NCBI GenBank assembly: GCA_012813795.1
Contig: GCA_012813795.1_4087.1
Length of the DNA: 64,000 nucleotides
Origin: a phage
Reading direction: 5' to 3' (one strand)
In this document: one piece after another, positions 3,618 to 62,277 of the stretch
Position numbering within the stretch: position 1 is the first letter of the stretch
Layout: each line of letters opens with the position of its first letter
Translations under genes and position numbers: made by a program
Notes under the pieces: model-generated
What the model saw: only the letters and a program-made list of their open reading frames with translations
The model's database searches: none
What the model was told of the DNA's origin: nothing

Positions 3618-4859
3618 TTATTTTTTACCATACCACTGCATTTCTCGAATATCGATTAGAACTTTTGCAGCTAGTTGAATGTTTGGTTTCTTTGGTAGAA
3701 CTGACTTAGGATACACCACATTGCGGATATAGTCAACCTTTTCATTGAAATAATCCATGACTTCTTCATATTTCCATTTGCCGTTGCGGATATCCATTAG
3801 CATATCAGCATCAGGACGTTTAACAAGGATAATACCGCTTTGTAATGCTTCTTCGGCACTATTTAGCAGCCTGATCGTATGCATAGCATGTTTTAAATCG
3901 AAGCCGTGCTGTGATTCCATAAGAGCACGTTTAGCATTACGATTCTCTTTCCATTTGTGATAACTTTTACGGTTCTCACTGTTCTCACTGTATTCTTTTT
4001 CATTGAATTTGACAATGAGTTCAGGTCGCACTTTCAATTCTTCAGTACTGCGTTCTTTGTTGAAATAACGTAAAGAACCATCAGCGTTAATTGTACTTTC
4101 ATTAGGATTGATAATAACACCAAAGATATTTTCACCGTAATGAATTAATTCGTACCCATTGTTATAATCCAATAAGTTGAAATCACGGTCTAGTACTTTA
4201 TCAGTACTGTAATTATGTACTAAACGTACAAAATGATACTGTTTCAACGGATGAGTTGAAACTAACTGCAATGAAGTATCACGCATGTATTTTTCAAAAT
4301 CAATTTTCTTAGCATTAAATGGATGTAGTTTAGAAGTATCTAAACGTTCTACCAAATAGTGTGGGAAATTTTCATACATCCATGCTAAAGTTTCATCTAC
4401 TGGAAAATCTTCTAAGATTTCATTTAGACGTTTTTCAGCAATACGCTCTTTATCCATCCACCCGTGGTGATTAGACATACGCTTAACCTGATTATATGCA
4501 TAACCGGTATAAGAGAATGCAATCTTAGAACTAAGTAATTGTTGATTGAATGTACGTAGATAATCATAGATTTCAGTACTTTCTACGATGTGTTCAGGAT
4601 CGACCCATAGTGATTCAAGAATATTTGGGTTAGCCTCTGTATATAGTCTTAAGTACTGGTTTAGTTCATAGAATTTAGTATCTTCTTCTCTTGAATCAGA
4701 AACTTCCTTTACATTATAAAAAGGCGTAAGGATGAATTCTTTGTTAGCAAGAAAAATACCACGATAATCCGTATCACTTTCAGGTGTACTGGTTCCATAC
4801 GCTTGTGAACCTGCTAAGTGCTTCACAATTGTTTGTTCAAGAAATTTGTTATTATTCAT
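3618..4859 (-). CDS. Pol-beta-superfamily nucleotidyltransferase (RlaP/PF10127-like)
   Basis: N-terminal HLAGSQAYGTSTPESDTDYRGIF fits the GS-x(9-13)-D-x-D minimal nucleotidyltransferase motif; 413 aa. Confidence 0.5.
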   Translation of the reverse strand: MNNNKFLEQTIVKHLAGSQAYGTSTPESDTDYRGIFLANKEFILTPFYNVKEVSDSREEDTKFYELNQYLRLYTEANPNILESLWVDPEHIVESTEIYDYLRTFNQQLLSSKIAFSYTGYAYNQVKRMSNHHGWMDKERIAEKRLNEILEDFPVDETLAWMYENFPHYLVERLDTSKLHPFNAKKIDFEKYMRDTSLQLVSTHPLKQYHFVRLVHNYSTDKVLDRDFNLLDYNNGYELIHYGENIFGVIINPNESTINADGSLRYFNKERSTEELKVRPELIVKFNEKEYSENSENRKSYHKWKENRNAKRALMESQHGFDLKHAMHTIRLLNSAEEALQSGIILVKRPDADMLMDIRNGKWKYEEVMDYFNEKVDYIRNVVYPKSVLPKKPNIQLAAKVLIDIREMQWYGKK

Positions 4860-21470: not shown

Positions 21471-22217
21471 TCATACATCCTCCTTGGGGTATAATTTTCT
21501 AAATTCAGTCATCAGTTTGTTGCGAATCGGTTTCGCATAATCAATAACAGCTTGTGCTTTTACATGATAATCACCATATGTTTCATCATATATCTTATAG
21601 ATGTTGTCGCGAATGTTCAGCATTTCAAGCACATCAAACTCTTGTTTCATTGACGCAATATTCATTTCATGTTCAGTATTGGATCTGTACAGATTGTAAT
21701 AATGCGTAATGATATAGATGAAGTGAATGCTATGCCAGATGTTCTTCAGTCCTAACATCTTATCGTAATCTTCCAGTACTGTCAACTTCTTTTTTCCTTT
21801 ATTAAAGGCTTTATCTGATGCAGTACTGCAAATTTTACGAATCTCACTGTTACGGCGTGTCATCATAACCGAACCGATATGACCAAGGTACATCAAAAGA
21901 TGATTTGCACATTTCGGTACAATAGTACCAAAACCGATGGTATAGTATTTAACATCACCACGCATTAATTCGACACGAAGATGATTGAGAGTCATACATT
22001 CAATATTGACAGGTATATCAATACAATCTAATTTTACAGAGAACTCACCTTCTTCAAACTCTTCTGGTACTATATTAATAACATCAATATCATTTGGTAA
22101 TTTGTCATCATACTTATACAAACAAAAAGTATTCCACGAACCATAGATAAATGGGCATTTATAACCAATTTTGATTAGTTCGGTGATGATTGCTTCGGTT
22201 TGTTTTTCAAGATCCAT
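21471..22217 (-). CDS. hypothetical protein, possible minimal nucleotidyltransferase fold
   Basis: FIYGSWNTF ... NDIDVI resembles GS ... D-x-D; weak. Confidence 0.35.
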   Translation of the reverse strand: MDLEKQTEAIITELIKIGYKCPFIYGSWNTFCLYKYDDKLPNDIDVINIVPEEFEEGEFSVKLDCIDIPVNIECMTLNHLRVELMRGDVKYYTIGFGTIVPKCANHLLMYLGHIGSVMMTRRNSEIRKICSTASDKAFNKGKKKLTVLEDYDKMLGLKNIWHSIHFIYIITHYYNLYRSNTEHEMNIASMKQEFDVLEMLNIRDNIYKIYDETYGDYHVKAQAVIDYAKPIRNKLMTEFRKLYPKEDV

Positions 22218-22550: not shown

Positions 22551-22618
22551 GATTTACTTCCTTCTTCGATAATGGTGTGTTCATTATAGCAATGAACACA
22601 TTTAATGTCAATAATAGA

Positions 22619-24058
22619 TTACATATTTTCTTCTGCAAACTCTGCAAGTGCAGAACGTACAACACCTTCCAATTCAATGATACGACACCCTTCCCAATCT
22701 TTGAATTTTTCAGTTACATATGTCAAACCACTATTAACTGGACTAATAAACTTACTATCAATCTGTGCTAAGTTACCCATAATGATAACCTTACAGTTTT
22801 GACCAGCACGGGTAAGAATAGTCTTTGCCTGTGCAGGGGTGATGTTCTGGAATTCATCTACAATTAGAATTGTATTAGTAAAAGAACGACCACGAATAAA
22901 GTTCAATGCTTTAAACTGCATTACGTTACGTTTGAGAATCTCTTCAATGCTACCTTGTGGGTTAGCATCATCTTTGTGTAGATACTCTAGAGCATCGATT
23001 GCAGCCCCACAGAATGGGATGACCTTTTCAGCTTCAGAACCAGGCAAGAAACCAATTTCTTCAAATTGAGAATCTTGTGTTTTGGAGAAGATTATACGAT
23101 CATATTTACGTTTTTCCAGCACTAATTCAAGGGAAGTAGCAACGGTAATCAGTGTTTTACCAGTACCTGCTGAACCTAGTAGTACTGTCAAATGTACATC
23201 AGGGTCAAGAATACTGTTAATTGCTAGTGCCTGTTGAATATTCTTTGCTTTAATATCCCAAACTTTAGCACGAAGAGCGATACTTTGACCAATATCCTGG
23301 AATACCAAAATATCTTCAGGTGTTAGTGAACCGTCTTCTTCTTCGATAGCAGATTGACCTTCGTATACGAATAGTACATCAGCATTATCATATAGATAAT
23401 CACCAATACATAGATTATCTGGTAGAACATCTTGAATCAATGCGGTTGGAATATAGTGATATAGACGGCGACCTTCTTGTTGGGATTTAATTTCAGCATT
23501 GTTAACTTCACTGAATGTTTTCCAGAAATCAATATCAAGGTGGTGCTGTCCAATATGAATCAACTCACTATCTTCGATTGCAACGTCATGGCGGTAATCT
23601 TGTACCTCAACACCGTAGCTCATTGCTTTGATACGCATGTTAATGTCGCGAGTTACCAGTACTGATTGTGATGCCAAAGCCACTAGAATGATTTTGTCAT
23701 CTGGTACAGTACTTTTAAGTAGAGTTTCTACTTTATCTTCACTGCCGCCCATACGAATAAGTGCTTCAGCTTCTTCATTCGTCATAACGAATAGCTTACT
23801 GGATGCATCCATATTTTTGTGGATATTGGCAATATTAACACCAGTACTGCTGATTTCTTCATGAGTAGCATCTTTCAGAATTGCATCGATGTTACGGATT
23901 GCGAAACGTGCATCACGTGATACGTCAACATTACGGCTCTTGATTGAATCAAGTTCTTCAAGAACAGTGAATGGTAGAATCACTGCTGCCCCATCAAATG
24001 CTACGGTTGCATTTGGATCGGATAGTAGTACGTTTGTGTCAATTGTGTATTTTTTCAT
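22619..24058 (-). CDS. phoH: PIN-domain / PhoH-like ATPase fusion (PhoH2/YlaK-type)
   Basis: N-terminal PIN-like acidic residues (YTIDTNVLL ... LEELD); C-terminal Walker A LLGSAGTGKT and PhoH core ILIVDEFQN; start set at ATG 24058 with AAGGA upstream. Confidence 0.8.
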   Translation of the reverse strand: MKKYTIDTNVLLSDPNATVAFDGAAVILPFTVLEELDSIKSRNVDVSRDARFAIRNIDAILKDATHEEISSTGVNIANIHKNMDASSKLFVMTNEEAEALIRMGGSEDKVETLLKSTVPDDKIILVALASQSVLVTRDINMRIKAMSYGVEVQDYRHDVAIEDSELIHIGQHHLDIDFWKTFSEVNNAEIKSQQEGRRLYHYIPTALIQDVLPDNLCIGDYLYDNADVLFVYEGQSAIEEEDGSLTPEDILVFQDIGQSIALRAKVWDIKAKNIQQALAINSILDPDVHLTVLLGSAGTGKTLITVATSLELVLEKRKYDRIIFSKTQDSQFEEIGFLPGSEAEKVIPFCGAAIDALEYLHKDDANPQGSIEEILKRNVMQFKALNFIRGRSFTNTILIVDEFQNITPAQAKTILTRAGQNCKVIIMGNLAQIDSKFISPVNSGLTYVTEKFKDWEGCRIIELEGVVRSALAEFAEENM

Positions 24059-24122: not shown

Positions 24123-24422
24123 TTATTGTGGCTCATAGTCAACGTAGCAGCGGTGACCGCGAGCCTTTTCTGTCCAGCATTCATTGTAAACAATTTGCCC
24201 AACTGAAACTGGTTTCCTTGATGCTCCATACTTAATAGACCCATCTTCAGTCTTATAAGTAAATGAACATGTATTTTCTTCACACTGCCCTATGTCAGTA
24301 ACAACAGCAGTACGGTAGTATATATCTCTGTGTTTGGTTTGATCTTGATGATAAAAGAACCAAAACCCAATAAGAAATATAATACTTGTGATTATAAAGC
24401 TTTGTATATGATGTTTTGTCAA
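24123..24422 (-). CDS. Small membrane protein
   Basis: N-terminal transmembrane helix SFIITSIIFLIGFWFFY. Confidence 0.45.
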   Translation of the reverse strand: MTKHHIQSFIITSIIFLIGFWFFYHQDQTKHRDIYYRTAVVTDIGQCEENTCSFTYKTEDGSIKYGASRKPVSVGQIVYNECWTEKARGHRCYVDYEPQ

Positions 24423-24751
24423 TTGTCCCCTCTCAAAAATCTAAAACCATTCTGTAAGTACGTGTCAATGTTGACCTTCCCTACAGGATTACTGCTATGG
24501 ATGATATAATCGAATTCAGTACTGATATTGTTTTCGACCATATAATCAATTAGAAATTTTGCAAATGAATACCCTGTCTTTTCATCCTCCCCAACATCAC
24601 CTAAGTCATGATCGAAGCTAATAAATTGTGGTAAACCATGTTCATTTACATAAGCACATGCACTTTCATAATCACGACATAAAACCATGTTTTGATTTGG
24701 ATAATACTTTTCAGGATCACGAATATCATCCAGAAACATTGAGTAAGACAT
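24419..24751 (-). CDS. hypothetical protein
   Basis: 110-aa ORF. Confidence 0.45.
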   Translation of the reverse strand: MSYSMFLDDIRDPEKYYPNQNMVLCRDYESACAYVNEHGLPQFISFDHDLGDVGEDEKTGYSFAKFLIDYMVENNISTEFDYIIHSSNPVGKVNIDTYLQNGFRFLRGDN

Positions 24752-24762
24752 TATAATTCACC

Positions 24763-25311
24763 TTATAAGTAACTAATCAGTAAATTCTCGGATTGAACAA
24801 GATGTTCTAATTCCATTTTAGCAGTTCCTATGAAGTTTTGTGTCATAAGATTATTATATCCTGCTTCTCGGTTTTGTCCCTTTGAATAACGAGAAATGTG
24901 ACATAAATTAACACCAGCCACTTCTGCACTTGCATGTTTAGCAGTACTGTATCCATCGCGAATCGCTTTCAATTCTTCGTAAGTAACTTCATAACTATAG
25001 CTATGGGTATGTGCTCCTGGATATAGTTCGTAAGTTTTCAATGGTTTCAATTGTTCGATAAAAATATTATAATTCATCTCTTCCTGAATTTCACGGAATA
25101 GTGCATCTTCTAAGGTGGCATCGGTATCTTCGACTGTTCCACCACAACCACCCAGTAAACCATCCCAACGAAGCTGGAGTAATACCAGATTCACAACAGG
25201 GATATCATTTAATTCATAACCTTTATATGGGTTACAATTTCGAGCAAAGAAGTAACAGAATACAAAGTTTGCTCGTTTACCATACTCACCTAGAGGTACT
25301 TCTCGAATCAT
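24763..25311 (-). CDS. hypothetical protein, divergent Nudix-like motif
   Basis: GGTVEDTDATLEDALFREIQEEMN approximates the Nudix box G-x5-E-x7-REUxEE but with altered spacing; weak. Confidence 0.3.
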   Translation of the reverse strand: MIREVPLGEYGKRANFVFCYFFARNCNPYKGYELNDIPVVNLVLLQLRWDGLLGGCGGTVEDTDATLEDALFREIQEEMNYNIFIEQLKPLKTYELYPGAHTHSYSYEVTYEELKAIRDGYSTAKHASAEVAGVNLCHISRYSKGQNREAGYNNLMTQNFIGTAKMELEHLVQSENLLISYL

Positions 25312-26060
25312 TTCATTCTATCCTTAATGATAGTTTCCAGTACTGGAATCGCTTTTGTAGCTGGTTTTATAATTTTTTCATTGAACATGAAATCGTTATC
25401 ATTTTTTCTGATGTTGATATTAACACTAAAGCATGGTAAACAAGCAACCAGATGTGACCATTTCAGTACTGTGTCACTGCTACCAATGACTACAACTGTA
25501 TCATCTTCTGTTAAGGATTGCAATACTAAATTACGCTCATCGTATATTGGGAGTTTTTCACCATCAACATAACGATAATATTCACCAATGAACACTACGT
25601 TTGGTTTCGCAAAGACACCTTCTTTCGGAATGTACGGTTCATAACCACAATCCACAATACTATAATCGTCACCACCAATTGTAAAATTCTCAATAACTTC
25701 TTTTAAATTACCATGTAACTTTAATTCATTACCACCAATACGAGTATAGAGATCATCCATATTCGAAGTCATATGTAAAAAGTTATCCCCGTATGTATCT
25801 TCTAGAGATTTGATATAATAATGCATATCATTAGGAACACAATCTTTCATTTTATCACGTAATGTATTATAGAAAGTGTGTACTAAATGATACTTAGTAC
25901 TAAGACGTGCAATGTTACATACATCATTTATTTGAAATTGATCCCATAGACCATCGTCCATGCGAAACGGTTCCATCCCACTTTCAACGGATAGACCTGC
26001 ACCGGAAATAACCAATACACGTTTATTACCTTTATTTTTTATAAAAGAGTCAGAAATCAT
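25308..26060 (-). CDS. Sir2-family NAD-dependent protein
   Basis: VLVISGAGLSVESGMEPFR (GAGxS ... PxFR), LHGN, PNVVFIGE and VVVIGSSDTV match Sir2 NAD-binding motifs. Confidence 0.6.
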   Translation of the reverse strand: MISDSFIKNKGNKRVLVISGAGLSVESGMEPFRMDDGLWDQFQINDVCNIARLSTKYHLVHTFYNTLRDKMKDCVPNDMHYYIKSLEDTYGDNFLHMTSNMDDLYTRIGGNELKLHGNLKEVIENFTIGGDDYSIVDCGYEPYIPKEGVFAKPNVVFIGEYYRYVDGEKLPIYDERNLVLQSLTEDDTVVVIGSSDTVLKWSHLVACLPCFSVNINIRKNDNDFMFNEKIIKPATKAIPVLETIIKDRMK

Positions 26061-26269
26061 AGCTTACCTACTGTACCTAATGAACTCAAATCATATACAA
26101 ATAATATACACACAACAGAGATGATAATATGATATACCATCCATCCATTGAATTTCTCTTTGTTTTTGATAATTTTATATATACATTTAATATTATTGTA
26201 CGCTGCAACTGCTAGAAATACAACAACAAAATAAACAAAGCATAGTGAAAAGTAATTGATAGTTATCAT
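26057..26269 (-). CDS. Small membrane protein
   Basis: Two predicted transmembrane helices; AAGGAG upstream. Confidence 0.4.
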   Translation of the reverse strand: MITINYFSLCFVYFVVVFLAVAAYNNIKCIYKIIKNKEKFNGWMVYHIIISVVCILFVYDLSSLGTVGKL

Positions 26270-26299
26270 AGTTATAATACTCTCCTTATTAAATTAATA

Positions 26300-26328
26300 T
26301 AGGGGATTATAAGAATCCCCTTTTTTGT
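26300..26328. terminator. Hairpin-plus-T-tract terminator candidate, orientation ambiguous
   Basis: Stem ggggatt/aatcccc (26303-26321) followed on the plus strand by tttttt; lies between two minus-strand genes. Confidence 0.4.
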
Positions 26329-28138: not shown

Positions 28139-31100
28139 ATGAAACCAATAGCTGGCTTAGATCAATTTCCATTTGTTATAGGTGGATTGCAGGTTACTGC
28201 TGCAAAGATAGAAGGGCAAGTATTTGTTAAAGAATTGTATGTTATAAAACAAAGAACATTCGATTCGTATGATTTGATATCTGAAAATTTCAAGATTTAC
28301 AAAGATATAAAAATCACAGGTAGAAATAAAGATAAATCAACATTGACGTATGATGATGACGATGCTGAAATTGCTAAATCTTTAGCAAATAATACATTTT
28401 GCATAAAAGAATCTGATGATTTTAACAAAAAATATGGTTTTGGTATACAATATCAATTGAATAAAATAAAATTACATAATGGTGAAGTGATATTTAGACA
28501 ATCCTCAATTCGACCATCAGTACTTAATGGTGTTTTCATTACACCGAGTTCATTTGAGATTGATGTTGGTCAACAACAAGTATTTGACGCGATATATGAT
28601 CCACAAAGTTGGATTAATAAAAATGGTACTTGGGATTATGATAAATCAGTTTTTGATGTGGTTTCTTTTACACAAACATCAATCACACTTCTCGCTAAAC
28701 AAGATGCCATTAATACAGAAATAAAATATTCACCTACTGGACGAGAAATAAATCGCATAGCAGTCAGTATAGGTTCAGTAGTAGATAACACTTCTATAAT
28801 TAAAAACATTTCAATAACACCTAATGTCATAAATTCCAAATTATCTGAAGATTTTACAGTTAATGTAGTTTATGATCCTATCAAATATAAATTCAAATCA
28901 GGTAAATGGTCTGTCAGTGATACATCAGTACTACAATTTGTTTCTGGTGATGGTGAAACTGCGACATTTAAACCTATCAGCGTTGGTTCTTCCACAATAA
29001 CATTCACATTAGATAAAGATAGTACAAAAACTGCAACTGCATCAGTTGAAGTATCTTATGCAGATTTAAAATCCGTCACAATATCACCAGAAAATGTAAC
29101 TGGTACTATAGGTGAAACTGGTAGTATTTCAATAAGTTATGTACCAGATAATGCACAAAAAGGTGGTTCATGGGCTATTTCTGATAAATTAATACTAAAA
29201 GAATTATCATCGACAATATCAGAATTTGATTATGAATTGGTTGGTAATGGAACAACATATGCTACATTCGTCCCATTAGCTAATTATGATGGTTCAATGA
29301 TAACTGCTAAATTTGATGTTAACTATTCAAAACTTGAAAACATTGTTCTTACACCTTCATCAGTTAGTAATCTAGTTCCAGGCGACACAGGAAAAATTAG
29401 TATTGAATATACACCAAGTACTGTTGAAACTGGTGGTACATGGTCATTCAATCCAACTGGTGTAATAGAACAAGATCTCAGCAAAAGTACGAGTACTGAA
29501 ATGTATTATAATGTATTAATCCCAGGTACATCAACTGCAACATTCCACCCAACTGCGTCATATGATGGAACTCCTAAAACTGTTTCATTTGAAGTTGGGA
29601 ATTCCGAGTTAACTGGTATTACGCTAACACCTACTACATCAACCGTAAAAATTGGTGATGATTTCTATATTGATATTACATATGAACCAAACACTGCTCT
29701 ACATGAAGGTACATGGAATACATCAGATTTTGAGAAATATGTAACACTCGAATCAGATAGTACACCTGATCGTGCACATTTTAAAGCTATAGGTGTGATT
29801 GATTCTGTTAATCTGACATATTCAAAAGGAACAATTAGTGCAACTAACAAATGTGCAGTTAATTATTCTGATTTAAAATCTATCACATTAAGTCCAACTG
29901 CAACATATGCTAAACTTGGTGATGATTTCTATGTAGATATTGCATATGATCCAGACACAGCACAACACACGGGTTCATGGAATACATCAGATTTTGAGAA
30001 ATATGTAACACTAGAATCAGATAGTACACCTGACCGTGCACACTTCAAAGCAATTGATTTAGTTGATGAAGTTGATTTGGTATATTCGAATGGTAATATA
30101 AGTGATACGAATTATTGTGGAGTTAGTCGTCCACCATTAATTTCAGTTTCATTGTCACCTTCTTCTGAAAAAGTTAAAGTTGGTGATTCCTTTAATGTGA
30201 AGATTACATATAACCCTAATACTGCTCAACATTACGGTGAATGGAATTTGGATGAAATAAAAGAATATCTTACATATGATTCGGATCTTAGTGTTTATGA
30301 TGTGGCTGTGTTTGATGTTATTAAACGTTCTGAAACACCAATAGAATTGAAATTTACAAGTGCAGGTAAAACTGCAACAAACACTTGTGAATTTGAAGAA
30401 GCTGTGTTAACCGGAATTTCATTGAAAATACAAGAAAATACGCCAATATACGACAGCCTATATGTTGTACCATATAAAGGTGACATATATATTGATGTTC
30501 TACCTATTCCAGCCGACGCAAAATTACCAGACGATATTGGAACCATCACTGATAATACGGGATTATATGATTTAACGTTTTTTGATTTTTTGAGTTTTAA
30601 TAAAGAAAAAAGTACAAATCACCGTTTGTATTTTGATTTTGTTTCATCATTTGATGAGTATATGTATTTTATTGAGGAATCTTCAAAAGGATTAATATTC
30701 ACATATACACTGTCTAATGGTATGACGGTAGACTCACCGGCAATGGTAACAAATTTTCCAGAACTGACGAAAGTCACCCTTGTGCCATCATCTGGAAAAT
30801 GTGATGTTAACTCAATAATAAAATGCGAGGCAACACTTGATAATGGTATGTCAACTTATTATATTAATCCGTTGAGTACTTATACAAGTGAACACGAGGA
30901 TTATTTGGTAATTGAAGATAGAACATCCTTTCAGCCGTTTGATGAATTCCTTGAACCAATTGAAATTGTAGGTAAACTTCCAACAAATATATATGTACCA
31001 GATGGTAATTACGTATATTTCACATATACACTATCAACCACACCTGCCCAACCGTTGATTGATTATAATATTTACATATATGATAGTAATGAATGTATAA

Positions 31101-31426
31101 AAGGACGTATAAAAAATCCAACAGACGTAGTTAACATAAAATATATGAATGTCTTTTTCTTTGACATAGAGAATAATCCACCAAATGCTTTATATAGAGG
31201 AAAAATGGAAGGTGGTATTCCTGTTACGTTTCAATATGACACCCAAAATTCTAGATTAAATTCGTATACTTATATGGTACAGGGGGTAACTGATGGACCA
31301 ATAACTCTAAAATACACTTCATCTGCTACTGGTGTTATTAGAACTGCACAAGTTGATGTTACTGGACCAATGACTGATGATAGTAATAAAACTGATGAGG
31401 GGGGTGATGGTGATTTACTTAAATGA
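28139..31426 (+). CDS. Giant Ig-like (Big_2/Hoc-like) repeat protein 1
   Basis: 1095 aa built from ~85-90-aa repeats with Y.DLKS ... GD.FY.DI.Y.PDTA.H.G.W ... F.A pattern; AAGGAGA upstream; two near-identical 264-bp tandem DNA repeats inside. Confidence 0.65.
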   Translation: MKPIAGLDQFPFVIGGLQVTAAKIEGQVFVKELYVIKQRTFDSYDLISENFKIYKDIKITGRNKDKSTLTYDDDDAEIAKSLANNTFCIKESDDFNKKYGFGIQYQLNKIKLHNGEVIFRQSSIRPSVLNGVFITPSSFEIDVGQQQVFDAIYDPQSWINKNGTWDYDKSVFDVVSFTQTSITLLAKQDAINTEIKYSPTGREINRIAVSIGSVVDNTSIIKNISITPNVINSKLSEDFTVNVVYDPIKYKFKSGKWSVSDTSVLQFVSGDGETATFKPISVGSSTITFTLDKDSTKTATASVEVSYADLKSVTISPENVTGTIGETGSISISYVPDNAQKGGSWAISDKLILKELSSTISEFDYELVGNGTTYATFVPLANYDGSMITAKFDVNYSKLENIVLTPSSVSNLVPGDTGKISIEYTPSTVETGGTWSFNPTGVIEQDLSKSTSTEMYYNVLIPGTSTATFHPTASYDGTPKTVSFEVGNSELTGITLTPTTSTVKIGDDFYIDITYEPNTALHEGTWNTSDFEKYVTLESDSTPDRAHFKAIGVIDSVNLTYSKGTISATNKCAVNYSDLKSITLSPTATYAKLGDDFYVDIAYDPDTAQHTGSWNTSDFEKYVTLESDSTPDRAHFKAIDLVDEVDLVYSNGNISDTNYCGVSRPPLISVSLSPSSEKVKVGDSFNVKITYNPNTAQHYGEWNLDEIKEYLTYDSDLSVYDVAVFDVIKRSETPIELKFTSAGKTATNTCEFEEAVLTGISLKIQENTPIYDSLYVVPYKGDIYIDVLPIPADAKLPDDIGTITDNTGLYDLTFFDFLSFNKEKSTNHRLYFDFVSSFDEYMYFIEESSKGLIFTYTLSNGMTVDSPAMVTNFPELTKVTLVPSSGKCDVNSIIKCEATLDNGMSTYYINPLSTYTSEHEDYLVIEDRTSFQPFDEFLEPIEIVGKLPTNIYVPDGNYVYFTYTLSTTPAQPLIDYNIYIYDSNECIKGRIKNPTDVVNIKYMNVFFFDIENNPPNALYRGKMEGGIPVTFQYDTQNSRLNSYTYMVQGVTDGPITLKYTSSATGVIRTAQVDVTGPMTDDSNKTDEGGDGDLLK

Positions 31427-31462
31427 TTATAAATTAATTTTAATGCTAAGGAGAAATATTTT

Positions 31463-33982: not shown

Positions 33983-34052
33983 TAGACTGAAATTACTTTA
34001 CAAAAAAAATGTGGTTGAATATTCAACCACATAATAAGAAGGAAACATAATT

Positions 34053-35678
34053 ATGATAGAAGATTCAAAAAATCTTATTTCAGTTAGTTTAAACAAAAGA
34101 ACTATTAGAACTTCTGTTCGTGATGTTAACACATTATATGTTAGTTTTAATCCACCTGACTATATTAATCAGGTTGGAACATGGACATATGATGAACAGT
34201 ATATTGAAATGATCACACAAGATAATTTGGTTTTTGTTTTTAAATCTATAAAAAGTGGTGTAACCACCATAACATACACACCACGTGATAATAAAGCATT
34301 ATCGAAGAATTGTATAGTTAATATTGAAAAAATACCATTATCATCAATTAGTCTTAACCCAAATTATATAACTTTATACAAAGGTCAAACTTTTGATATT
34401 GATATATCATATATCCCAGATGGAGCAGTTCATTCGGGTAATTGGAGTAATTTAAACAATGATATATTGTATATAGGTCAACAAAGTACACCTGATAAAT
34501 CAAGAATGCAAGTACTAACAACTGATGCTAAGATGATAACTTTATATTATACCAGTGGCGAAATATCAGTTCCTTTGAATTGTACTATATTGAACAACCC
34601 AGCAGATGAAATTATTTTCGATCCACCATCACCAATTAATGTAACAGTTGGTGAGAGTTTTTTTGTAAACATAAACTATGCACCAGAAAATGCGGATAAG
34701 GTTGGATTCTGGGAATATGATGATTCAGTACTGATGTTATTGAATGATAGTGATAAGGCATCCAGTGCACATTTTGTGGCTACCAAAAAAACCACATCAA
34801 CTGGAACTGAACTTAAATTCCGTTCAGGTGATGTGTACTCAACGTTACAGTGCTTTATAACTCCTGGTGTTTTAGATTTATTAACATTAACACCTAGTTA
34901 TGAAACGGTGGTTGTTGGTGACGCGTTTGACATTGGAATAACCTATTACCCAGAAGACATAATTCACAAAGGTATATGGGAATATGATTCTACATATTTC
35001 AAAAAAATGTTCGATGACTCAAATACTGCAACATTTAGATTAATCAAAAAATCCGACATACCATTAAAATTAAGATATATCTCTTATGGGAGAGCATTTA
35101 ATAATATATGCACTACTGTTGAAAATGGTGATTTAGTTTCATTACAATTAAACCCTAATTCCGAATCAGTTGAGGTTGGTAAAAGTTTTGATATCGCAAT
35201 AACATATAAACCTGATAATGCTTTACATAGTGGTATATGGGATTTCGATTCGGAATATATTAAATTGGAAAAATCAAGTACAGTGGATAAAGCAACATTT
35301 ACAGTACTGAAATATAATCCAAATCCATTAACATTAACTTATAAATCAGGTAAAACAACTGCAACAAACAAATGTATTACTGTAAAAAATACACCAGTAT
35401 TAAGTAGTATTAAAGTATCCCCAGAATCAACTGAAATGAAAGTTGGTGATACAGTATTATTATCAATTTCATACAACCCTAATACAGTAGAGCATATGGG
35501 AATGTGGTATTATGATAAAAAACTATTCAAATTAATAGACACAGGTCAAACACATGACTATGGTATATTTGAATGCTTGGCGGTGTCAGACGCAAAATCA
35601 CCAATAGTATTTTCAAGTGCTGGAAATGCTGATGCTTGTATTGTCACAACTAAAGAAAAAACAACTAAAGAGGATTAA
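34053..35678 (+). CDS. Giant Ig-like repeat protein 3
   Basis: 541 aa, same repeat signature (YIPDGAVHSGNW, YKPDNALHSGIW). Confidence 0.65.
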   Translation: MIEDSKNLISVSLNKRTIRTSVRDVNTLYVSFNPPDYINQVGTWTYDEQYIEMITQDNLVFVFKSIKSGVTTITYTPRDNKALSKNCIVNIEKIPLSSISLNPNYITLYKGQTFDIDISYIPDGAVHSGNWSNLNNDILYIGQQSTPDKSRMQVLTTDAKMITLYYTSGEISVPLNCTILNNPADEIIFDPPSPINVTVGESFFVNINYAPENADKVGFWEYDDSVLMLLNDSDKASSAHFVATKKTTSTGTELKFRSGDVYSTLQCFITPGVLDLLTLTPSYETVVVGDAFDIGITYYPEDIIHKGIWEYDSTYFKKMFDDSNTATFRLIKKSDIPLKLRYISYGRAFNNICTTVENGDLVSLQLNPNSESVEVGKSFDIAITYKPDNALHSGIWDFDSEYIKLEKSSTVDKATFTVLKYNPNPLTLTYKSGKTTATNKCITVKNTPVLSSIKVSPESTEMKVGDTVLLSISYNPNTVEHMGMWYYDKKLFKLIDTGQTHDYGIFECLAVSDAKSPIVFSSAGNADACIVTTKEKTTKED

Positions 35679-35681
35679 ATC

Positions 35682-51905: not shown

Positions 51906-52838
51906 TCAAAATAGTCCAGGTTCCACCTGAAATACTTTCAAGCCTAGTAGCTTACGCCACATGAATACAACTTGTGATCTATCATCAAATACTTTCTTAA
52001 CATCGTAATGATTAACAACGTTATTCATATACAACTCGAATTTGACAACATCATCAGGACGTTTATCATCGATAGCTCGCATTAACAATACATCGTAGGG
52101 AATGCCCCAATTCTTAAGCCACTGTTCAGTATCAGCACGACACCCTTCAGTACGCCCACTCATGACGATTACCTTACGCTTATGGAAAACAGCCTCAGCA
52201 ATGACAGACAGAATTACTTCTTCATCTGGTGTATCCTGAAGGACAGTACTTTCATCAAACGGGTTACGTCCCCACTTATGAGCAAGAGTACCGTCGATAT
52301 CAACAATGATAGCAGCTTCACGTGCATTACCATAGTAACCAATGTGCATCGCCTTACTATAATAGTACGTATTTGCCATAGTGTCAATGATTTCATCTTG
52401 TACTGAACGCTCACGCTGGAGGTTATATTTCTTACAAAGTTTTACGAACTCTTTAATCTTAAAGAATTCATGAACATCTGCACCACGGTCTTCATTAGGT
52501 ACAAAATCATCATAGAAGTTCTTTTCTTTGTAATCATAACCATTATCTTTAGCCCACATTTTCCATTGATCACGGAAATGTGGTTTAAGGTTCGTATCGG
52601 ATACGATGATATTCCAACTATTCTCCGCTGCTGAATTTGCTGCACTGAACTGTAAATTAGTTACGTACTTCTCATTAGCATCGTTGAATTTGTAAGCATC
52701 ATGTGACCCAGCCATAGATTCACGAATATCATCACGGTTGATGTTGATAGTCTTGGATTTGGCTTTTTTAATCTCTTGCACTGCCCATGTAGTTTTACCA
52801 CACCCTGGCAATCCAACTGTTAGTGTAATAGTTGGCAT
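51906..52838 (-). CDS. pseT: Polynucleotide 5'-kinase / 3'-phosphatase
   Basis: N-terminal Walker A GLPGCGKTT and C-terminal HAD phosphatase motif IVDIDGTLA. Confidence 0.85.
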   Translation of the reverse strand: MPTITLTVGLPGCGKTTWAVQEIKKAKSKTININRDDIRESMAGSHDAYKFNDANEKYVTNLQFSAANSAAENSWNIIVSDTNLKPHFRDQWKMWAKDNGYDYKEKNFYDDFVPNEDRGADVHEFFKIKEFVKLCKKYNLQRERSVQDEIIDTMANTYYYSKAMHIGYYGNAREAAIIVDIDGTLAHKWGRNPFDESTVLQDTPDEEVILSVIAEAVFHKRKVIVMSGRTEGCRADTEQWLKNWGIPYDVLLMRAIDDKRPDDVVKFELYMNNVVNHYDVKKVFDDRSQVVFMWRKLLGLKVFQVEPGLF

Positions 52839-53911: not shown

Positions 53912-55057
53912 CTAAAAATCCTTTAGTACATCTTTGTAGTACTTTAGTAAAGTCTCTTTATAATCGACACTTTTGCCATTGTACAACGCAAAGGCCAAGC
54001 CTTGTCGGTTCAATACATTAGGTAAATCTTGCTGAACCTTTTGAGCGAATTCCTTTCGCTCTAAGTGCTTGTATGCATGGACGAAGCTTTCTACCTCATC
54101 TTGTAAAGCATTATAGCACGAAAATACCAATTGTTCCATTCTTAATATCTTATCCATAGCATATGTATCAGTACTGAACAATTGTTTTAAGTCATCACTT
54201 GCACCAGTCAGTACAGCTTCATATAAATGGGAATCAATAAGAATGGAATCTTTTGTTAAATGCAAAGAGCAATACCAGTCAGTTTTGATTTTGCACATTG
54301 TACCATCTTTCATTATACACACAAAACCTTCAATGTCAAGCATAGAACGTACTTTATCGATTGACTCTTTAAATGTAGGCATAATCGGGAATGTATGATG
54401 AATGTCATTACCTGTCATATTAGTACTGTACTGTGAAAGGCATGGAAACTTATCACGTAGTGCTTTACCGCATAACAACTCACCACTAATACGATGACGA
54501 ACGTTAAGAACAAATAACTGTTCCACCTGATATGGTAACACAATTCGATACTCTGGGCTTGTGTATTCCAGATTCACAGTATAGCCCAAACGGTCTGCTT
54601 CATCAATGTATTGATAGAGATTTTGGTTCTCGTTCAAAAGTCGAGTACTGTTAATAGCATGGTCAGAAGATAACGAAGTGTGTGATTTACAACGGATTTC
54701 ACCATCGTTATCACGGAATGTGCTGATGATAGAACCATCTAGCTTAGGCATTACAACCGCAATATCATCACAGGTAGTATCAGTACTGAACATTGTGTAC
54801 GGGTTTTCATATGCATTGAAGAACTTTTTCATTGTACGTGCTGCACAACGAATCATAATTCCGTTGGAATCGATTTCCCACATAGAACCACGAGTTTCTA
54901 GTGCATTTTTATTTGTGAAATCGGTATAAGATGCCAGACGATAGGTGAATACACGGTATAAACCACCACCAGGGCTTGTATGATCTATATAGAAAAATGC
55001 ATCATTAGATTCACATAGTTCCATTAAATCATTGTATATTTCTCGCAAATTACTCAT
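53912..55057 (-). CDS. rnlA: RNA ligase 1
   Basis: Nucleotidyltransferase motif I VVMPKLDGSI (KxDG); N-terminus LMELCESNDAFFY and VCIMKDGTMCKIKTDWY parallel T4 Rnl1 as recalled. Confidence 0.85.
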   Translation of the reverse strand: MSNLREIYNDLMELCESNDAFFYIDHTSPGGGLYRVFTYRLASYTDFTNKNALETRGSMWEIDSNGIMIRCAARTMKKFFNAYENPYTMFSTDTTCDDIAVVMPKLDGSIISTFRDNDGEIRCKSHTSLSSDHAINSTRLLNENQNLYQYIDEADRLGYTVNLEYTSPEYRIVLPYQVEQLFVLNVRHRISGELLCGKALRDKFPCLSQYSTNMTGNDIHHTFPIMPTFKESIDKVRSMLDIEGFVCIMKDGTMCKIKTDWYCSLHLTKDSILIDSHLYEAVLTGASDDLKQLFSTDTYAMDKILRMEQLVFSCYNALQDEVESFVHAYKHLERKEFAQKVQQDLPNVLNRQGLAFALYNGKSVDYKETLLKYYKDVLKDF

Positions 55058-61455: not shown

Positions 61456-61741
61456 GTAAATTGTCCAGTAAGTTGATTACATCATCGTGTGTAAGTTCAG
61501 TATCAGTACAAAGGAAGTTCATAATGAACTGCATTTGTGAATAAAGATTAGCGAGAAATTCAACTTCATCCAGACGATATGAATAACCCATTGGAACCAC
61601 TTGACATGTCCATTCACCTAGGGTTTTGTTCGCAACAACCGATACAATAGTGTTACCTTTGTATTCTACTTGGATATTACGATATCCTGAACTTTCATTT
61701 TGTTCCCATAGTACTGGGTTAGTTTTGAAGAGTACTGTCAT
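61448..61741 (-). CDS. hypothetical small protein
   Basis: 97-aa ORF. Confidence 0.4.
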   Translation of the reverse strand: MTVLFKTNPVLWEQNESSGYRNIQVEYKGNTIVSVVANKTLGEWTCQVVPMGYSYRLDEVEFLANLYSQMQFIMNFLCTDTELTHDDVINLLDNLHV

Positions 61742-62277
61742 GGTTCTTTCCTCATGTATTTTATTACATCTTTAAAAAGTTTTATTTTCAAGTCATTATC
61801 ATCACCTGGTAGATAAGAACTAAAGCTTTCAAAATCATCACGCTTAGCAAAAGAACGCATTTCAGTTGAACTGTACTTGCTAACGTTTCGGTCAATACCA
61901 GCTTGGATTGCTTTTATATTACGAAAATTATACAAGTTTCCATTGTATCTGTCAAGTACATTTTGAAAGTTTTCTATCCTGTCTGAACCACATATGAAAA
62001 GAACATCACTGTACTTACCATTCAATTCCTGCATAATATCAAAAAGATTATCTTCAGTACTGATGTTGTGTTGAATTCTTGGATAGAAACCCTCAGTGTA
62101 ATACATTTTCAATTCAGGTGGTAATGGATTCTTAATACAATCTTGTGTAGTACTAAGGTATATTTTTAAATCAGCATTGTATTGTTCTTTCATCGATACG
62201 GCTTTATCAAAAATTAACCCATGTCCCAAATGCACTGGATTTATACGTCCATACGTTACTATACAAGTGTCTTTCAT
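61738..62277 (-). CDS. HxGH-family nucleotidyltransferase, NMN adenylyltransferase-like (NadM/PPAT type)
   Basis: N-terminal YGRINPVHLGHG (GRxxPxHxGH) and later KYSSTEMR (ISSTxxR-like) motifs; 179 aa. Confidence 0.55.
   Translation of the reverse strand: MKDTCIVTYGRINPVHLGHGLIFDKAVSMKEQYNADLKIYLSTTQDCIKNPLPPELKMYYTEGFYPRIQHNISTEDNLFDIMQELNGKYSDVLFICGSDRIENFQNVLDRYNGNLYNFRNIKAIQAGIDRNVSKYSSTEMRSFAKRDDFESFSSYLPGDDNDLKIKLFKDVIKYMRKEP

What the first reader, a model, noticed from the sequence alone, without database searches (positions are those of the whole stretch)
24763..26060. NAD-linked gene set: Sir2-like protein next to a Nudix-like ORF, with an NMN adenylyltransferase-like gene at 61738-62277
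Gene 25308-26060 has Sir2 NAD-binding motifs (GAGLSVESG..PFR, HGN, VVFIGE, VVVIGSS). The gene overlapping its 3' end (24763-25311) has a divergent Nudix-like box (GGTVEDTD...REIQEEMN). A separate gene at 61738-62277 has the GRxxPxHxGH and SSTxxR motifs of NMN/NaMN adenylyltransferases. Together they suggest the phage manipulates or replenishes NAD+, which is relevant because several host defence systems act by NAD+ depletion. The Nudix call is weak.
Basis: partly seen in the sequence, partly recalled or inferred. Interest (0 to 1): 0.5.

Follow-up and report, generated by a model that had tools for sequence, protein, structure and literature searches.

The report
Phage sirtuin–Nudix–cREC RNA-linked operon
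A jumbo E. coli phage carries a conserved operon with an NAD-consuming sirtuin, a Nudt16-like Nudix hydrolase, a cyclic-phosphate "cREC" enzyme and a PIN-PhoH RNase/helicase; this module has already been predicted on paper to be an NAD-dependent RNA-repair system, and in this phage it has no NAD-rebuilding genes.

Summary
The genes and motifs are real. 25308-26060 is a sirtuin (Pfam SIR2, 6.5e-20). 24763-25311 is a solid Nudt16-like Nudix (3.4e-19), not a weak call.

A cREC domain gene (24419-24751), a 99-aa membrane ORF and a PIN-PhoH gene (22619-24058) follow on the same strand.

This is the sirtuin+Nudix+cREC+PIN neighbourhood that Iyer et al. 2022 described in jumbo phages and predicted to be an NAD+-using RNA-repair system. 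I found no experimental test of it.

The window is an Asteriusvirus, 99% identical to Escherichia phage A4.

The 179-aa gene 36 kb away is a HIGH-superfamily nucleotidyltransferase:
- Its closest solved relatives are phosphopantetheine adenylyltransferases.
- It belongs to the cyanophage/jumbo-phage "cytidyltransferase" family.
- It coexists with genuine NadM in sister phages, so the NMNAT reading is unsupported.

In 15 of 16 related jumbo-phage loci, NadM+NadV sit just upstream of the sirtuin block, and 14 also have an Acb1-like 2H gene there. The Asteriusvirus locus lacks all three. The complete A4 genome gave no hit for NadM, NadV, a Prs-like kinase or the 2H gene.

The set consumes and processes NAD+/ADP-ribose. 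It does not replenish NAD+. Interest is modest.

The parts
26057..26269 (-). 70-aa ORF with one N-terminal hydrophobic helix. Its stop overlaps the Sir2 start by 4 nt. It is the first gene of the putative unit.
   Evidence: Kyte-Doolittle 19-residue maximum 2.3. Annotated in phage A4 and conserved there (96%). No family match.
25308..26060 (-). Sirtuin, 250 aa. CobB-like (class III) fold without the Zn-binding cysteines. GAGLS, TSNMDD and catalytic H116-G117 are present. Y64 and R68 are invariant in the phage clade.
   Evidence: Pfam SIR2 6.5e-20. AF2 pLDDT 91.8. Foldseek best hit CobB 6rxq, TM 0.78/0.85. Clade profile against CobB 8.9e-39; the CobB Cys ligands are unmatched. Invariant columns. 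No PADLOC hit.
24763..25311 (-). Nudt16-like Nudix hydrolase, 182 aa. Nudix box G57-G58...E61...R73-E74-x-x-E77-E78. C-terminal NFIGTA motif shared with NUDT16.
   Evidence: Pfam Nudt16-like 3.4e-19 and NUDIX 1.7e-6. PDB NUDT16 1.7e-13 to 8.5e-13 over residues 28-178. Fused to cREC in GAP32.
24419..24751 (-). cREC (cyclic-phosphate-processing receiver-like) domain protein, 110 aa. Receiver-type acidic residues D8, D9 and D47.
   Evidence: Pfam cREC_REC 1.8e-22, 80 bits against a cut-off of 27. 60% identical to the C-terminal half of the GAP32 Nudix::cREC fusion. Acidic residues read from the translation.
24123..24422 (-). 99-aa ORF (TTG start) with an N-terminal hydrophobic helix and a Cys-containing C-terminal part. 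Conserved in this position from Asteriusvirus to GAP32. Function unknown.
   Evidence: 40-55% identity in relatives; present in 15 of 16 jumbo loci.
22619..24058 (-). PIN-PhoH (PhoH2-type) protein: N-terminal PIN endoRNase domain plus a PhoH ATPase/RNA-helicase domain. An alternative GTG start lies at 24082.
   Evidence: Pfam PIN_4 1.2e-21 and PhoH 1e-43. 72% identical to the GAP32 protein.
26301..26321 (.). 8-bp-stem hairpin between the HslV-like gene and the 70-aa ORF. Possible upstream boundary of the transcription unit.
   Evidence: pattern match only.
22583..22611 (-). Perfect sigma-70 consensus (TTGACA-17-TATAAT with TG) immediately after the PIN-PhoH stop. Possible start of the next unit.
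   Evidence: Pattern match only; promoter-like sites overall are not enriched (40 found against 34 +/- 6 expected).
61738..62277 (-). 179-aa HIGH-superfamily nucleotidyltransferase of unknown substrate. It was evaluated because the finding includes it, but it is probably NOT part of the Sir2 module.
53912..55057 (-). T4 Rnl1-type RNA ligase. A distal RNA-repair gene and possible functional partner.
   Evidence: Pfam RNA_lig_T4_1 1.6e-15 and T4_Rnl1_C 7e-15.
51906..52838 (-). T4 Pnkp-type polynucleotide 5'-kinase/3'-phosphatase. A distal RNA-repair gene.
   Evidence: Pfam HAD_PNKP 2.7e-42 and AAA_33 4e-13.
3618..4859 (-). RlaP-family pol-beta nucleotidyltransferase (named for the RNA repair pathway). 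Distal.
   Evidence: Pfam RlaP 2.1e-17.

Best explanation
The finding is part of a six-gene, same-strand and largely overlapping block: 70-aa membrane ORF, sirtuin, Nudt16-like Nudix, cREC, 99-aa membrane ORF, PIN-PhoH (26269 to 22619). It is conserved in Rak2-like jumbo phages.

The most likely reading is the one predicted by Iyer et al. 2022: an NAD+-consuming module that works on RNA ends.

Shown here:
- The protein families.
- An intact catalytic His and NAD-binding motifs in a CobB-like sirtuin that has lost the Zn cysteines.
- Intact Nudix metal-binding glutamates.
- Intact receiver-type aspartates in cREC.
- A Nudix::cREC fusion in sister phages.
- Conserved gene order.

Inferred:
- The sirtuin transfers ADP-ribose from NAD+ onto an RNA phosphate (a 2'-phosphate as with Tpt1/KptA, or a terminal phosphate). 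[quoted passage not shown]
- cREC opens cyclic phosphates, either on RNA 2',3' ends or on ADPr>p.
- The Nudt16-like enzyme cleaves the ADP-ribose pyrophosphate to AMP plus (phospho)ribose.
- PIN-PhoH supplies RNA unwinding and cleavage.
- Sealing would fall to the phage's T4-type Pnkp and Rnl1, encoded 26-29 kb away.

The 179-aa nucleotidyltransferase is a separate gene of unknown substrate. This phage lineage has no NAD+ salvage arm.
For: Family assignments.

Sirtuin:
- Model pLDDT 91.8; best match CobB, TM 0.78/0.85.
- The phage-clade profile aligns full length to CobB (8.9e-39), but CobB's Zn cysteines have no counterpart.
- G20, G22, N100, D103, H116, G117, Y64 and R68 are invariant from jumbo to T5-like, rV5-like and Vibrio phages.

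Fusion and synteny:
- GAP32 encodes one 301-aa protein with Nudt16-like and cREC domains. It aligns to the two window genes at 51% and 60%.
- The order Sir2, Nudix, cREC, small ORF, PIN-PhoH is the same in 15 of 16 jumbo-phage loci; the 16th is truncated.

In other phage groups the same sirtuin clade sits beside RNA-end enzymes:
- Rnl1, cREC and a P-loop kinase in Mydo-like phages.
- HAD_SAK_2 ('Swiss Army Knife RNA repair') in T5-like phages.

The window also holds Rnl1, Pnkp and RlaP.

Literature:
- PMC9503650 section 3.7.3 describes exactly this neighbourhood and this hypothesis.
- Human NUDT16 acts on RNA ends that were ADP-ribosylated by the Tpt1 homologue TRPT1 (PMC6582358).
Against: No biochemical data exist for any phage-clade sirtuin or any cREC protein.

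The sirtuin's nearest relatives by sequence and fold are true protein lysine deacylases (CobB, Sirt5), and nothing computed here excludes that activity.

T4-type Pnkp plus Rnl1 repair does not need 2'-phosphate removal.

PIN nucleases leave 3'-OH ends, not cyclic phosphates.

In this phage Rnl1 and Pnkp are not adjacent to the block.

In sister genera the block is flanked by NadM+NadV and an Acb1-like 2H gene, families with established counter-defence roles. That fits a small-molecule counter-defence reading equally well.

Operon boundaries rest on pattern matches only.
Confidence: 0.4

Rival explanations
1. The sirtuin is a CobB-like protein lysine deacylase that remodels host or phage protein acylation. 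The Nudix (with cREC) only disposes of the O-acyl-ADP-ribose by-product. PIN-PhoH is functionally unrelated.
For: Closest relatives by sequence and by fold are E. coli CobB, Sir2Af and Sirt5. The catalytic His, the NAD pocket motifs and a class-III-like Tyr/Arg pair are conserved. GenBank relatives are annotated as NAD-dependent deacylases.
Against: The Zn-binding cysteines present in CobB are absent across the whole phage clade. Scores are far below the NCBIfam CobB equivalog cut-offs (85-93 bits against 243-320). In three independent gene contexts the sirtuin is tied to RNA-end enzymes, not to acyl-CoA or acetyltransferase genes. No Macro or ARH-type O-acyl-ADPr deacylase lies in the block.
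Confidence: 0.25
2. The block is a counter-defence module against NAD-derived or cyclic nucleotide immune signals and toxins. cREC and Nudix would degrade cADPR isomers, ADPr>p or ADPr-1''P. The sirtuin would modify or generate ADPr derivatives.
For: In 14-15 of 16 related jumbo-phage loci the block lies directly downstream of an Acb1-family 2H gene (Pfam Acb1, 5.7e-16) and of NadM+NadV, the NARP2 pair. In rV5-like phages a Prs-like/NadV-like pair lies 5-8 kb away. PMC7824862 proposed cREC and Nudix as processors of cADPr-type signals.
Against: Neighbouring position alone is weak evidence, and most of these loci share one ancestry. This window has lost exactly those flanking genes yet keeps the block intact. 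A sirtuin is not needed to degrade signals. No PADLOC or known anti-defence family match was found for the Sir2 or cREC proteins. PIN-PhoH and the RNA ligase contexts are left unexplained.
Confidence: 0.2
3. An RNA 5'-end decapping and decay module for host shut-off. The Nudt16-like enzyme removes NAD, triphosphate or other caps, and PIN-PhoH degrades the RNA. The sirtuin is only loosely connected.
For: The Nudix belongs to the Nudt16/X29 RNA-decapping family rather than to the ADPr pyrophosphatase families. [quoted passage not shown]
Against: This does not explain the Nudix::cREC fusion, the strict linkage to the sirtuin, or the sirtuin's association with RNA ligases and HAD phosphatases elsewhere.
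Confidence: 0.1
4. One reading: Sir2, Nudix and an NMNAT-like enzyme together manipulate and replenish NAD+ to counter NAD+-depleting defences.
For: The HIGH-motif segment GRxxPxHxGH resembles the archaeal/NadM type (profile against MJ0541 NMNAT 9e-4 and a NadM-type entry 1.8e-3, N-terminal part only). Sister phages do place real salvage genes next to the Sir2 block.
Against: The best full-length profile match (3e-6) and all of the top 41 fold matches are PPAT, with no NMNAT in the top 50. NadD, NadR and FAD-synthase models are far below cut-off. GAP32 NadM gives no tblastn hit at E<=1 anywhere in A4, the 179-aa gene included. The family coexists with NadM in Muenster, PHA46, pEa_SNUABM_12 and Kaldavass. 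No NAMPT or Prs-like partner is present in the genome. Sir2 and Nudix consume NAD+ rather than rebuild it.
Confidence: 0.05

Closest known systems
Sirtuin-centred 'NAD+-utilizing RNA-repair' neighbourhood, type 1, of jumbo phages (Iyer, Burroughs, Anantharaman & Aravind 2022, Viruses 14:1977; prototype Serratia phage BF AQW88637.1)
   Same: Sirtuin, Nudix, cREC and a PIN endoRNase in one conserved gene neighbourhood in a Rak2-like jumbo phage. The gene order matches GAP32 and 14 other jumbo-phage loci.
   Different: Nudix and cREC are separate genes here (fused in BF and GAP32). The 2H gene is absent. The upstream NadM+NadV pair is absent from the whole genome. The system is a computational prediction and has never been tested.
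E. coli CobB / class III sirtuins (Sirt5, Sir2Af)
   Same: Two-domain sirtuin fold (TM 0.78/0.85, rmsd 2.7 A), GAGxS, TxNxD and the HG catalytic His. A Tyr/Arg pair sits at the position of the acidic-acyl recognition residues.
   Different: No Zn-binding cysteines. 29% identity. Below the CobB equivalog thresholds. An invariant clade-specific VC motif (V47-C48). Arg spacing is Y-x3-R rather than Y-x2-R in the jumbo clade. The substrate is unknown.
Tpt1/KptA RNA 2'-phosphotransferase pathway (Tpt1, then a 2H cyclic phosphodiesterase, then ADPr-1''-phosphatase)
   Same: The proposed logic is the same: NAD+ is used to remove or tag an RNA phosphate, and ADPr>p is then processed by a cyclic phosphodiesterase-like enzyme and a pyrophosphatase. 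NUDT16 acts on TRPT1-made ADPr-RNA (PMC6582358).
   Different: There is no sequence or fold relationship. Tpt1 has an ART fold and this protein a sirtuin fold. cREC replaces 2H, and Nudix replaces or adds to Macro. The analogy is inferred, not shown.
NUDT16 / X29 (U8 snoRNA decapping enzyme) family
   Same: Pfam Nudt16-like above threshold. The alignment covers 150 residues, including the extended Nudix box GG[FT]V[DE]...LED.L.RE..EE and the C-terminal FIG[ST]A motif.
   Different: A phage protein of about 25-30% identity. Often fused to cREC in relatives. The substrate has not been determined.
NARP2 (NadV/NAMPT + NadM/NMNAT) and NARP1 phage NAD+ reconstitution pathways
   Same: These pathways sit beside the homologous Sir2 block in sister genera (15 of 16 jumbo loci) and, as a Prs-like/NadV-like pair, 5-8 kb away in rV5-like phages.
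   Different: Neither pathway's genes are detectable in the window or in the A4 genome. The 179-aa nucleotidyltransferase is not a NadM/NadR/NadD member by any threshold.
Phosphopantetheine adenylyltransferase (CoaD) and the cyanophage 'cytidyltransferase' family
   Same: The 179-aa protein's best fold hits (E 9e-5, TM 0.55-0.6) and best profile hits (3e-6, full length) are PPAT. Homologues are annotated cytidyltransferase in 563 phage records, mostly T4-like cyanophages.
   Different: Similarity to PPAT is remote (11-17% identity). No CoaD model passes threshold. In many homologues the domain is the N-terminus of 500-1200-aa proteins. The substrate is unknown.

Membership tests
Sirtuin (SIR2) superfamily | Pfam SIR2 profile above the gathering score | tested here: met
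   72.3 bits against a cut-off of 24, E 6.5e-20.
Sirtuin (SIR2) superfamily | Rossmann NAD-binding GAGxS, TxNxD and catalytic His in an HG motif | tested here: met
   G20-A-G22-L-S24, T98-S-N100-M-D-D103 and H116-G117. All are invariant or nearly so across the phage clade.
Canonical deacylase sirtuins (CobB/Sirt5 type) | Cys ligands of the structural Zn in the small domain | tested here: not met
   CobB's RC...KCHCC cysteines align to non-Cys positions. There are no conserved Cys in that region in 31 clade members.
Canonical deacylase sirtuins (CobB/Sirt5 type) | NCBIfam CobB / PRK00481 equivalog score | tested here: not met
   85-93 bits against cut-offs of 243-320.
Canonical deacylase sirtuins (CobB/Sirt5 type) | NAD+-dependent lysine deacylase activity | not testable with these tools
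   Needs an enzyme assay.
Defence-type Sir2 NADases (ThsA, DSR, SIR2-HerA, SPARSA) | Match to defence-system Sir2 models or folds | tested here: not met
   No PADLOC hit at E<=0.01. The 50 listed PDB fold matches are CobB, archaeal Sir2 homologues, Sirt5 and Plasmodium Sir2A entries; none is described as a defence-system Sir2.
Nudix / Nudt16-like | Pfam Nudt16-like and NUDIX above the gathering scores | tested here: met
   69.8 bits against 27 and 28.5 against 21.1. NUDT16 PDB chains at 1.7e-13.
Nudix / Nudt16-like | Nudix box metal-binding residues (RE-x2-EE) | tested here: met
   R73-E74-I-Q-E77-E78, aligned to RELREE of NUDT16. The classical GX5EX7 spacing is replaced by the longer NUDT16-type spacing.
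cREC (PF20274) | Profile above the gathering score and receiver-type acidic residues | tested here: met
   80.3 bits against 27. FLDD (D8, D9) and SFDHD (D47) are present in the translation.
Iyer et al. type-1 sirtuin RNA-repair neighbourhood | Sirtuin linked to Nudix, cREC and a PIN endoRNase | tested here: met
   Contiguous same-strand genes 26060-22619. The same order occurs in 15 of 16 jumbo-phage loci.
Iyer et al. type-1 sirtuin RNA-repair neighbourhood | Linked 2H phosphoesterase | tested here: not met
   The GAP32 2H (Acb1-like) has no tblastn hit in the window or in the whole A4 genome. It is absent from the Asteriusvirus locus L004 but present in 14 of 16 loci.
Iyer et al. type-1 sirtuin RNA-repair neighbourhood | RNA 2'-phosphotransferase-like activity of the sirtuin | not testable with these tools
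   A prediction only. No experimental paper was found.
NMN/NaMN adenylyltransferase (NadD, NadM, NadR) | Family profile above threshold | tested here: not met
   TIGR00482 21 bits against 112. No NadR or NadM model hit. GAP32 NadM gives no tblastn hit in A4 at E<=1.
NMN/NaMN adenylyltransferase (NadD, NadM, NadR) | HxGH and ISSTxxR motifs | tested here: inconclusive
   Both are present (HLGH, SSTEMR), but they are shared by the whole HIGH nucleotidyltransferase superfamily, including PPAT.
NMN/NaMN adenylyltransferase (NadD, NadM, NadR) | Closest structural and profile relatives are NMNATs | tested here: not met
   Foldseek hits 1-41 are PPAT and there is no NMNAT in the top 50. Profile: PPAT 3e-6 over the full length, against archaeal NMNAT 9e-4 over the N-terminal 60 residues.
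NARP1/NARP2 NAD+ reconstitution | NAMPT/Namat-like and Prs-like or NMNAT partner genes | tested here: not met
   tblastn with GAP32 NadV, GAP32 NadM and the Mydo Prs-like protein gave no hit in the window (E<=0.01) or in A4 (E<=1). NARP3 (PnuC+NadR) was not tested with its own sequences.
Phosphopantetheine adenylyltransferase (CoaD) | Family model above threshold, or conserved substrate pocket | tested here: inconclusive
   Best remote match by fold and profile, but no NCBIfam or Pfam CoaD-specific hit. Substrate-binding residues were not analysed.

The most novel reading that the evidence does not exclude
The Zn-less, CobB-derived sirtuin clade found in 972 phage records is not a protein deacylase. 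It would be the first nucleic-acid-directed sirtuin. It would use NAD+ to ADP-ribosylate or remove an RNA phosphate, as a functional analogue of Tpt1/KptA. The Nudt16-like::cREC pair would clear ADPr>p or ADPr-RNA. The retained class-III Tyr/Arg anion site would be re-used to bind phosphate instead of a succinyl carboxylate.

In most jumbo-phage relatives this NAD+ sink is genomically coupled to NadV+NadM, which would recycle the released nicotinamide. The Asteriusvirus lineage runs the module without that recycling arm.
Probability: 0.3. Interest if true: 0.7.

Novelty: new member of a known kind. Interest (0 to 1): 0.3.

Why it matters
If the prediction holds, phages would have turned a sirtuin into an NAD+-dependent RNA-end repair or tagging enzyme. 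That would be a new activity for a heavily studied enzyme family and a new layer in the phage-host contest over tRNA/mRNA cleavage and NAD+.

The Asteriusvirus version is a convenient minimal test case:
- The genes are separate.
- No 2H gene and no NadV/NadM are present to confound results.
- The phage grows on E. coli.

As an annotation finding it adds little. The genes are already labelled in GenBank relatives and the neighbourhood is published. The NAD-replenishment idea does not hold for this phage.

Tried and rejected
- NMNAT identity of the 179-aa gene. Rejected as unsupported after Pfam/NCBIfam scans, PDB phmmer (no hit), an AF2 model with Foldseek, a profile-against-PDB search and the family's distribution.
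- NAD salvage genes elsewhere in the genome. I fetched the whole A4 record in nine pieces and ran tblastn with NadM, NadV and a Prs-like protein. There were no hits.
- Defence-type Sir2, as a superinfection-exclusion NADase. No PADLOC match, and no defence-type Sir2 among the 50 listed fold matches.
- tRNA genes in the window as possible repair substrates. None found. The A4 tRNA cluster lies elsewhere.
- Single-sequence search for related loci for Sir2 returned only one close relative. The alignment-based scan was needed.
- The word-indexed homologue search for the 179-aa protein found only close relatives. The exhaustive profile search was needed.
- Literature searches for experimental work on phage sirtuins or cREC found none. 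'CREC' mostly means carbapenem-resistant E. coli.
- The promoter/terminator scan gives only pattern-level operon boundaries, and sites are not enriched over shuffles.
- A Pfam scan of nearby hypothetical ORFs for a hidden 2H, Macro or KptA found nothing.
Full report
**Source of the window.** The window is from an Asteriusvirus jumbo phage of E. coli. The region 24400-26300 is 99.0% identical to Escherichia phage A4 (ON286972.1, 355.5 kb) and about 75-77% identical to 13 other E. coli jumbo-phage records of about 350-390 kb, the one whose taxonomy was checked (WPEC5) being unclassified. The 61400-62900 region behaves the same way.

**Observation.**
- Sirtuin (25308-26060): Pfam SIR2 6.5e-20 and phrog_2162 5e-72.
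- Nudix (24763-25311): Pfam Nudt16-like 3.4e-19, NUDIX 1.7e-6 and phrog_9999 1e-84. It aligns over about 150 residues to human NUDT16 and Xenopus X29 structures at 1.7e-13 to 5.7e-11. The alignment includes the extended box GG[FT]V[DE]..D..LED.L.RE..EE and a C-terminal FIG[ST]A motif. The 'weak' Nudix call is therefore strong.
- 179-aa protein (61738-62277): only sub-threshold matches to generic cytidylyltransferase-like, FAD-synthetase and NadD models, and no PDB sequence hit.

The Sir2-Nudix pair is the upstream part of a tight same-strand block.
- A 70-aa membrane ORF (26057-26269) overlaps the Sir2 start by 4 nt.
- Sir2 overlaps the Nudix start by 4 nt.
- Eleven nt after the Nudix comes a cREC_REC domain gene (24419-24751; PF20274, 1.8e-22).
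- cREC overlaps a 99-aa membrane ORF (24123-24422).
- Sixty-four nt later comes a PIN-PhoH gene (22619-24058; PIN_4 1.2e-21, PhoH 1e-43).

A hairpin at 26301-26321 and a perfect sigma-70 consensus at 22611-22583 bracket the block. These are pattern matches only.

[quoted passage not shown] They propose that the sirtuin acts like KptA/Tpt1 in removing RNA 2'-phosphates. The other enzymes would resolve cyclic phosphates or process ADPr>p. cREC itself was defined in their 2021 jumbo-phage paper (PMC7824862).

I found no experimental study of a phage sirtuin or of cREC in the searchable library.

**Independent check of the context.**
- In Cronobacter phage GAP32 the order is NadM, x, NadV, four small genes, Sir2, a 301-aa Nudt16-like::cREC fusion, a 100-aa ORF, then PIN-PhoH.
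- The window genes match these at 39% (Sir2), 51% (Nudix), 60% (cREC), 40% (small ORF) and 72% (PIN-PhoH).
- An alignment-based scan of viral contigs returned 80 loci with a phage-clade sirtuin. I screened their flanks locally.

| Group | Loci | Context of the sirtuin |
|---|---|---|
| Jumbo-phage | 16 | Sir2, Nudix, cREC, small ORF, PIN-PhoH in the same order in 15; the 16th is truncated |
| T5-like | 27 | A HAD_SAK_2 'Swiss Army Knife RNA repair' phosphatase about 1 kb downstream (Pfam 2.3e-20); a PhoH gene on the opposite strand upstream in all but one |
| rV5/Mydo-like | 10-11 | Rnl1-type RNA ligase, cREC (2.1e-17) and a P-loop kinase just upstream; MazG downstream |

These are the three configurations in the paper. 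The window itself also encodes a T4 Rnl1-type RNA ligase (53912-55057), a T4 Pnkp (51906-52838) and an RlaP nucleotidyltransferase (3618-4859).

**The sirtuin.**
- The AF2 model is confident (pLDDT 91.8). It is most similar to E. coli CobB (TM 0.78/0.85, rmsd 2.7 A, 29% identity), then to archaeal Sir2 and Sirt5. No defence-type Sir2 appears in the top 50, and there is no PADLOC hit.
- A profile of the phage clade aligns to CobB over its full length (8.9e-39). CobB's Zn-ligand cysteines (RC...KCHCC) face non-Cys residues.
- No Cys is conserved in that region in 31 clade members spanning jumbo, T5-like, rV5-like and Vibrio phages.
- Invariant residues include the NAD-pocket glycines, N100, D103, H116-G117, a clade-specific V47-C48, and Y64 and R68. 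The last two occupy the place of the Tyr/Arg pair that class III sirtuins use to bind acidic acyl groups. That role comes from my knowledge of Sirt5 and CobB. Their re-use for a phosphate is my inference.
- Scores against the CobB equivalog models are far below cut-off.

It is therefore a sirtuin derived from the CobB class, but it is not demonstrably a CobB-type deacylase.

**Mechanism.** The best-supported reading (confidence about 0.4) is the published prediction. NAD+ is spent on an RNA phosphate, either a 2'-PO4 as with Tpt1 or a terminal phosphate. cREC opens cyclic phosphates. The Nudt16-like enzyme cleaves the ADP-ribose pyrophosphate. PIN-PhoH handles RNA unwinding and cleavage.

One supporting fact from experiment is that human NUDT16 removes the ADP-ribose signal from RNA ends modified by the Tpt1 homologue TRPT1 (PMC6582358).

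Weak points:
- The sirtuin's nearest relatives are deacylases.
- T4-type Pnkp/Rnl1 repair needs no 2'-phosphate removal.
- PIN nucleases do not create cyclic ends.
- Nothing has been assayed.

**The 179-aa gene.**
- Its AF2 model (pLDDT 83) matches phosphopantetheine adenylyltransferases first (E 9e-5, TM 0.55-0.6), then FAD synthetase. No NMNAT appears in the top 50.
- A 35-sequence family profile hits PPAT over the full length (3e-6). It hits archaeal or NadM-type NMNATs only over the N-terminal HIGH segment (9e-4 to 2e-3).
- The family is large: 3354 representative clusters. The domain is often the N-terminus of 500-1200-aa proteins.
- In isolates it is the 'cytidyltransferase' of T4-like cyanophages and Rak2-like jumbo phages (563 records).
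- Klebsiella phage Muenster, Salmonella phage PHA46, and Erwinia phages pEa_SNUABM_12 and Kaldavass carry both this gene and a genuine NadM.
- It lies 36 kb from the Sir2 block and overlaps a Dam methylase gene.

It is a nucleotidyltransferase of unknown substrate. NMNAT is not excluded, but it has no specific support.

**NAD+ salvage.** NadV and NadM homologues of GAP32 are present in every other Rak2-like group seen in the search: GAP32, CBB, Serratia BF, Yersinia fHe-Yen9-04, Salmonella Munch/7t3, Klebsiella RaK2/K64-1/Muenster and E. coli EJP2. No Asteriusvirus record appears among the top 40 hits of either search.

I assembled the complete A4 genome from nine fetched pieces. tblastn found no match at E<=1 to NadM, NadV, the Mydo Prs-like protein or the GAP32 2H protein. 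The same run recovered the Sir2 block at the expected place. The window is also negative.

In the 16 jumbo loci:
- 15 have NadM and NadV 2-7 kb upstream on the same strand.
- 14 have a 2H gene 0.6-1.3 kb upstream.
- The single locus with none of these is the Asteriusvirus one.

The GAP32 2H protein is a Pfam Acb1 (anti-CBASS) family member (5.7e-16). rV5-like phages have a Prs-like/NadV-like pair 5-8 kb from the sirtuin.

Linkage of the sirtuin block to NAD+ salvage is therefore real in relatives, although it represents only a few independent events. It is compatible with recycling of sirtuin-released nicotinamide. This phage has only the consuming side.

**Elsewhere in A4, outside the window.** The record annotates a CCA-adding/2',3'-cyclic phosphodiesterase-type enzyme, a second Nudix and a Macro-domain protein within 3 kb of each other, a third Nudix among tail genes, and tRNA genes. 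These show that ADP-ribose-processing and tRNA-related functions are scattered through the genome.

**Verdict.** The block is a new (Asteriusvirus, unfused, 2H-less, salvage-less) member of a published but untested kind. As a finding it is of modest interest (0.3). The underlying biochemical question, whether a sirtuin acts on RNA, is worth testing, and this minimal version is a good substrate for that.

Noticed in passing
L005 5300-5746 (Cronobacter phage GAP32 gene GAP32_118): The 2H phosphoesterase immediately upstream of the sirtuin in GAP32 scores as Pfam Acb1 (anti-CBASS protein), 5.7e-16. Tblastn homologues of it lie 0.6-1.3 kb upstream of the sirtuin in 14 of 16 jumbo-phage loci, together with NadM+NadV in 15 of 16. 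In relatives the Sir2 block therefore sits in what looks like a counter-defence island. The Asteriusvirus lineage lacks all three genes.
   Followed up: partly
window 22583-22611 (- strand) and 26301-26321: A perfect sigma-70 consensus promoter (12/12 with an extended TG) sits right after the PIN-PhoH stop codon. A hairpin that reads as a terminator on both strands lies upstream of the 70-aa ORF.
   Followed up: no
window 21471-22217 (- strand): A 248-aa ORF with a pol-beta-type nucleotidyltransferase-like motif (IYGS...NDIDV, by eye). Pfam gives only a sub-threshold DUF6932 match. It is conserved downstream of PhoH in GAP32 (35% identity).
   Followed up: partly
window 13629-13964 (- strand): A DUF4326 protein (9.3e-25) embedded in the anaerobic ribonucleotide reductase cluster. 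Iyer et al. [quoted passage not shown]
   Followed up: no
window 28139-37883 (+ strand): Four paralogous large ORFs (1095, 839, 541 and 733 aa) that are paralogous to one another by BLASTP. Their domain content was not tested; the Ig-like label rests only on the 'Ig domain-containing protein' annotation of the gene in the equivalent position in GAP32. The block is about 6.5 kb longer than the corresponding region of phage A4, so it is a variable structural region.
   Followed up: partly
window 59177-60524 (- strand): Five tandem paralogous ORFs of about 90 aa (N-termini such as MNYKDLHFTYKL and MDYRVLNRTYKAL), function unknown. Many further small ORFs of 80-105 aa fill 47554-53400.
   Followed up: partly
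window 45883-46302 (- strand): A 139-aa ORF with a sub-threshold PTH2 (peptidyl-tRNA hydrolase) match (2e-4, 21.9 bits against a cut-off of 23), near an ATP-dependent DNA ligase and a metallophosphoesterase.
   Followed up: no
Phage A4 record 136686-139617 (outside the window; L010 25987-28918): The A4 record annotates a CCA-adding/2',3'-cyclic phosphodiesterase-type enzyme, a Nudix hydrolase, a glutaredoxin and a Macro-domain protein close together. This is a second possible ADP-ribose/tRNA-end processing cluster in the same genome.
   Followed up: no
window 62801-62819 versus A4 66334-66948: A4 has an extra 615-nt ORF (A4_405) between the Dam methylase gene and the next gene. The window lacks it, an indel of about 620 nt.
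   Followed up: no
window 24123-24422 and 26057-26269 (- strand): Two small ORFs, each with a single N-terminal hydrophobic helix, bracket the enzymes of the block. The 99-aa one is conserved in position in 15 of 16 jumbo-phage loci. This hints at membrane association of the module.
   Followed up: partly
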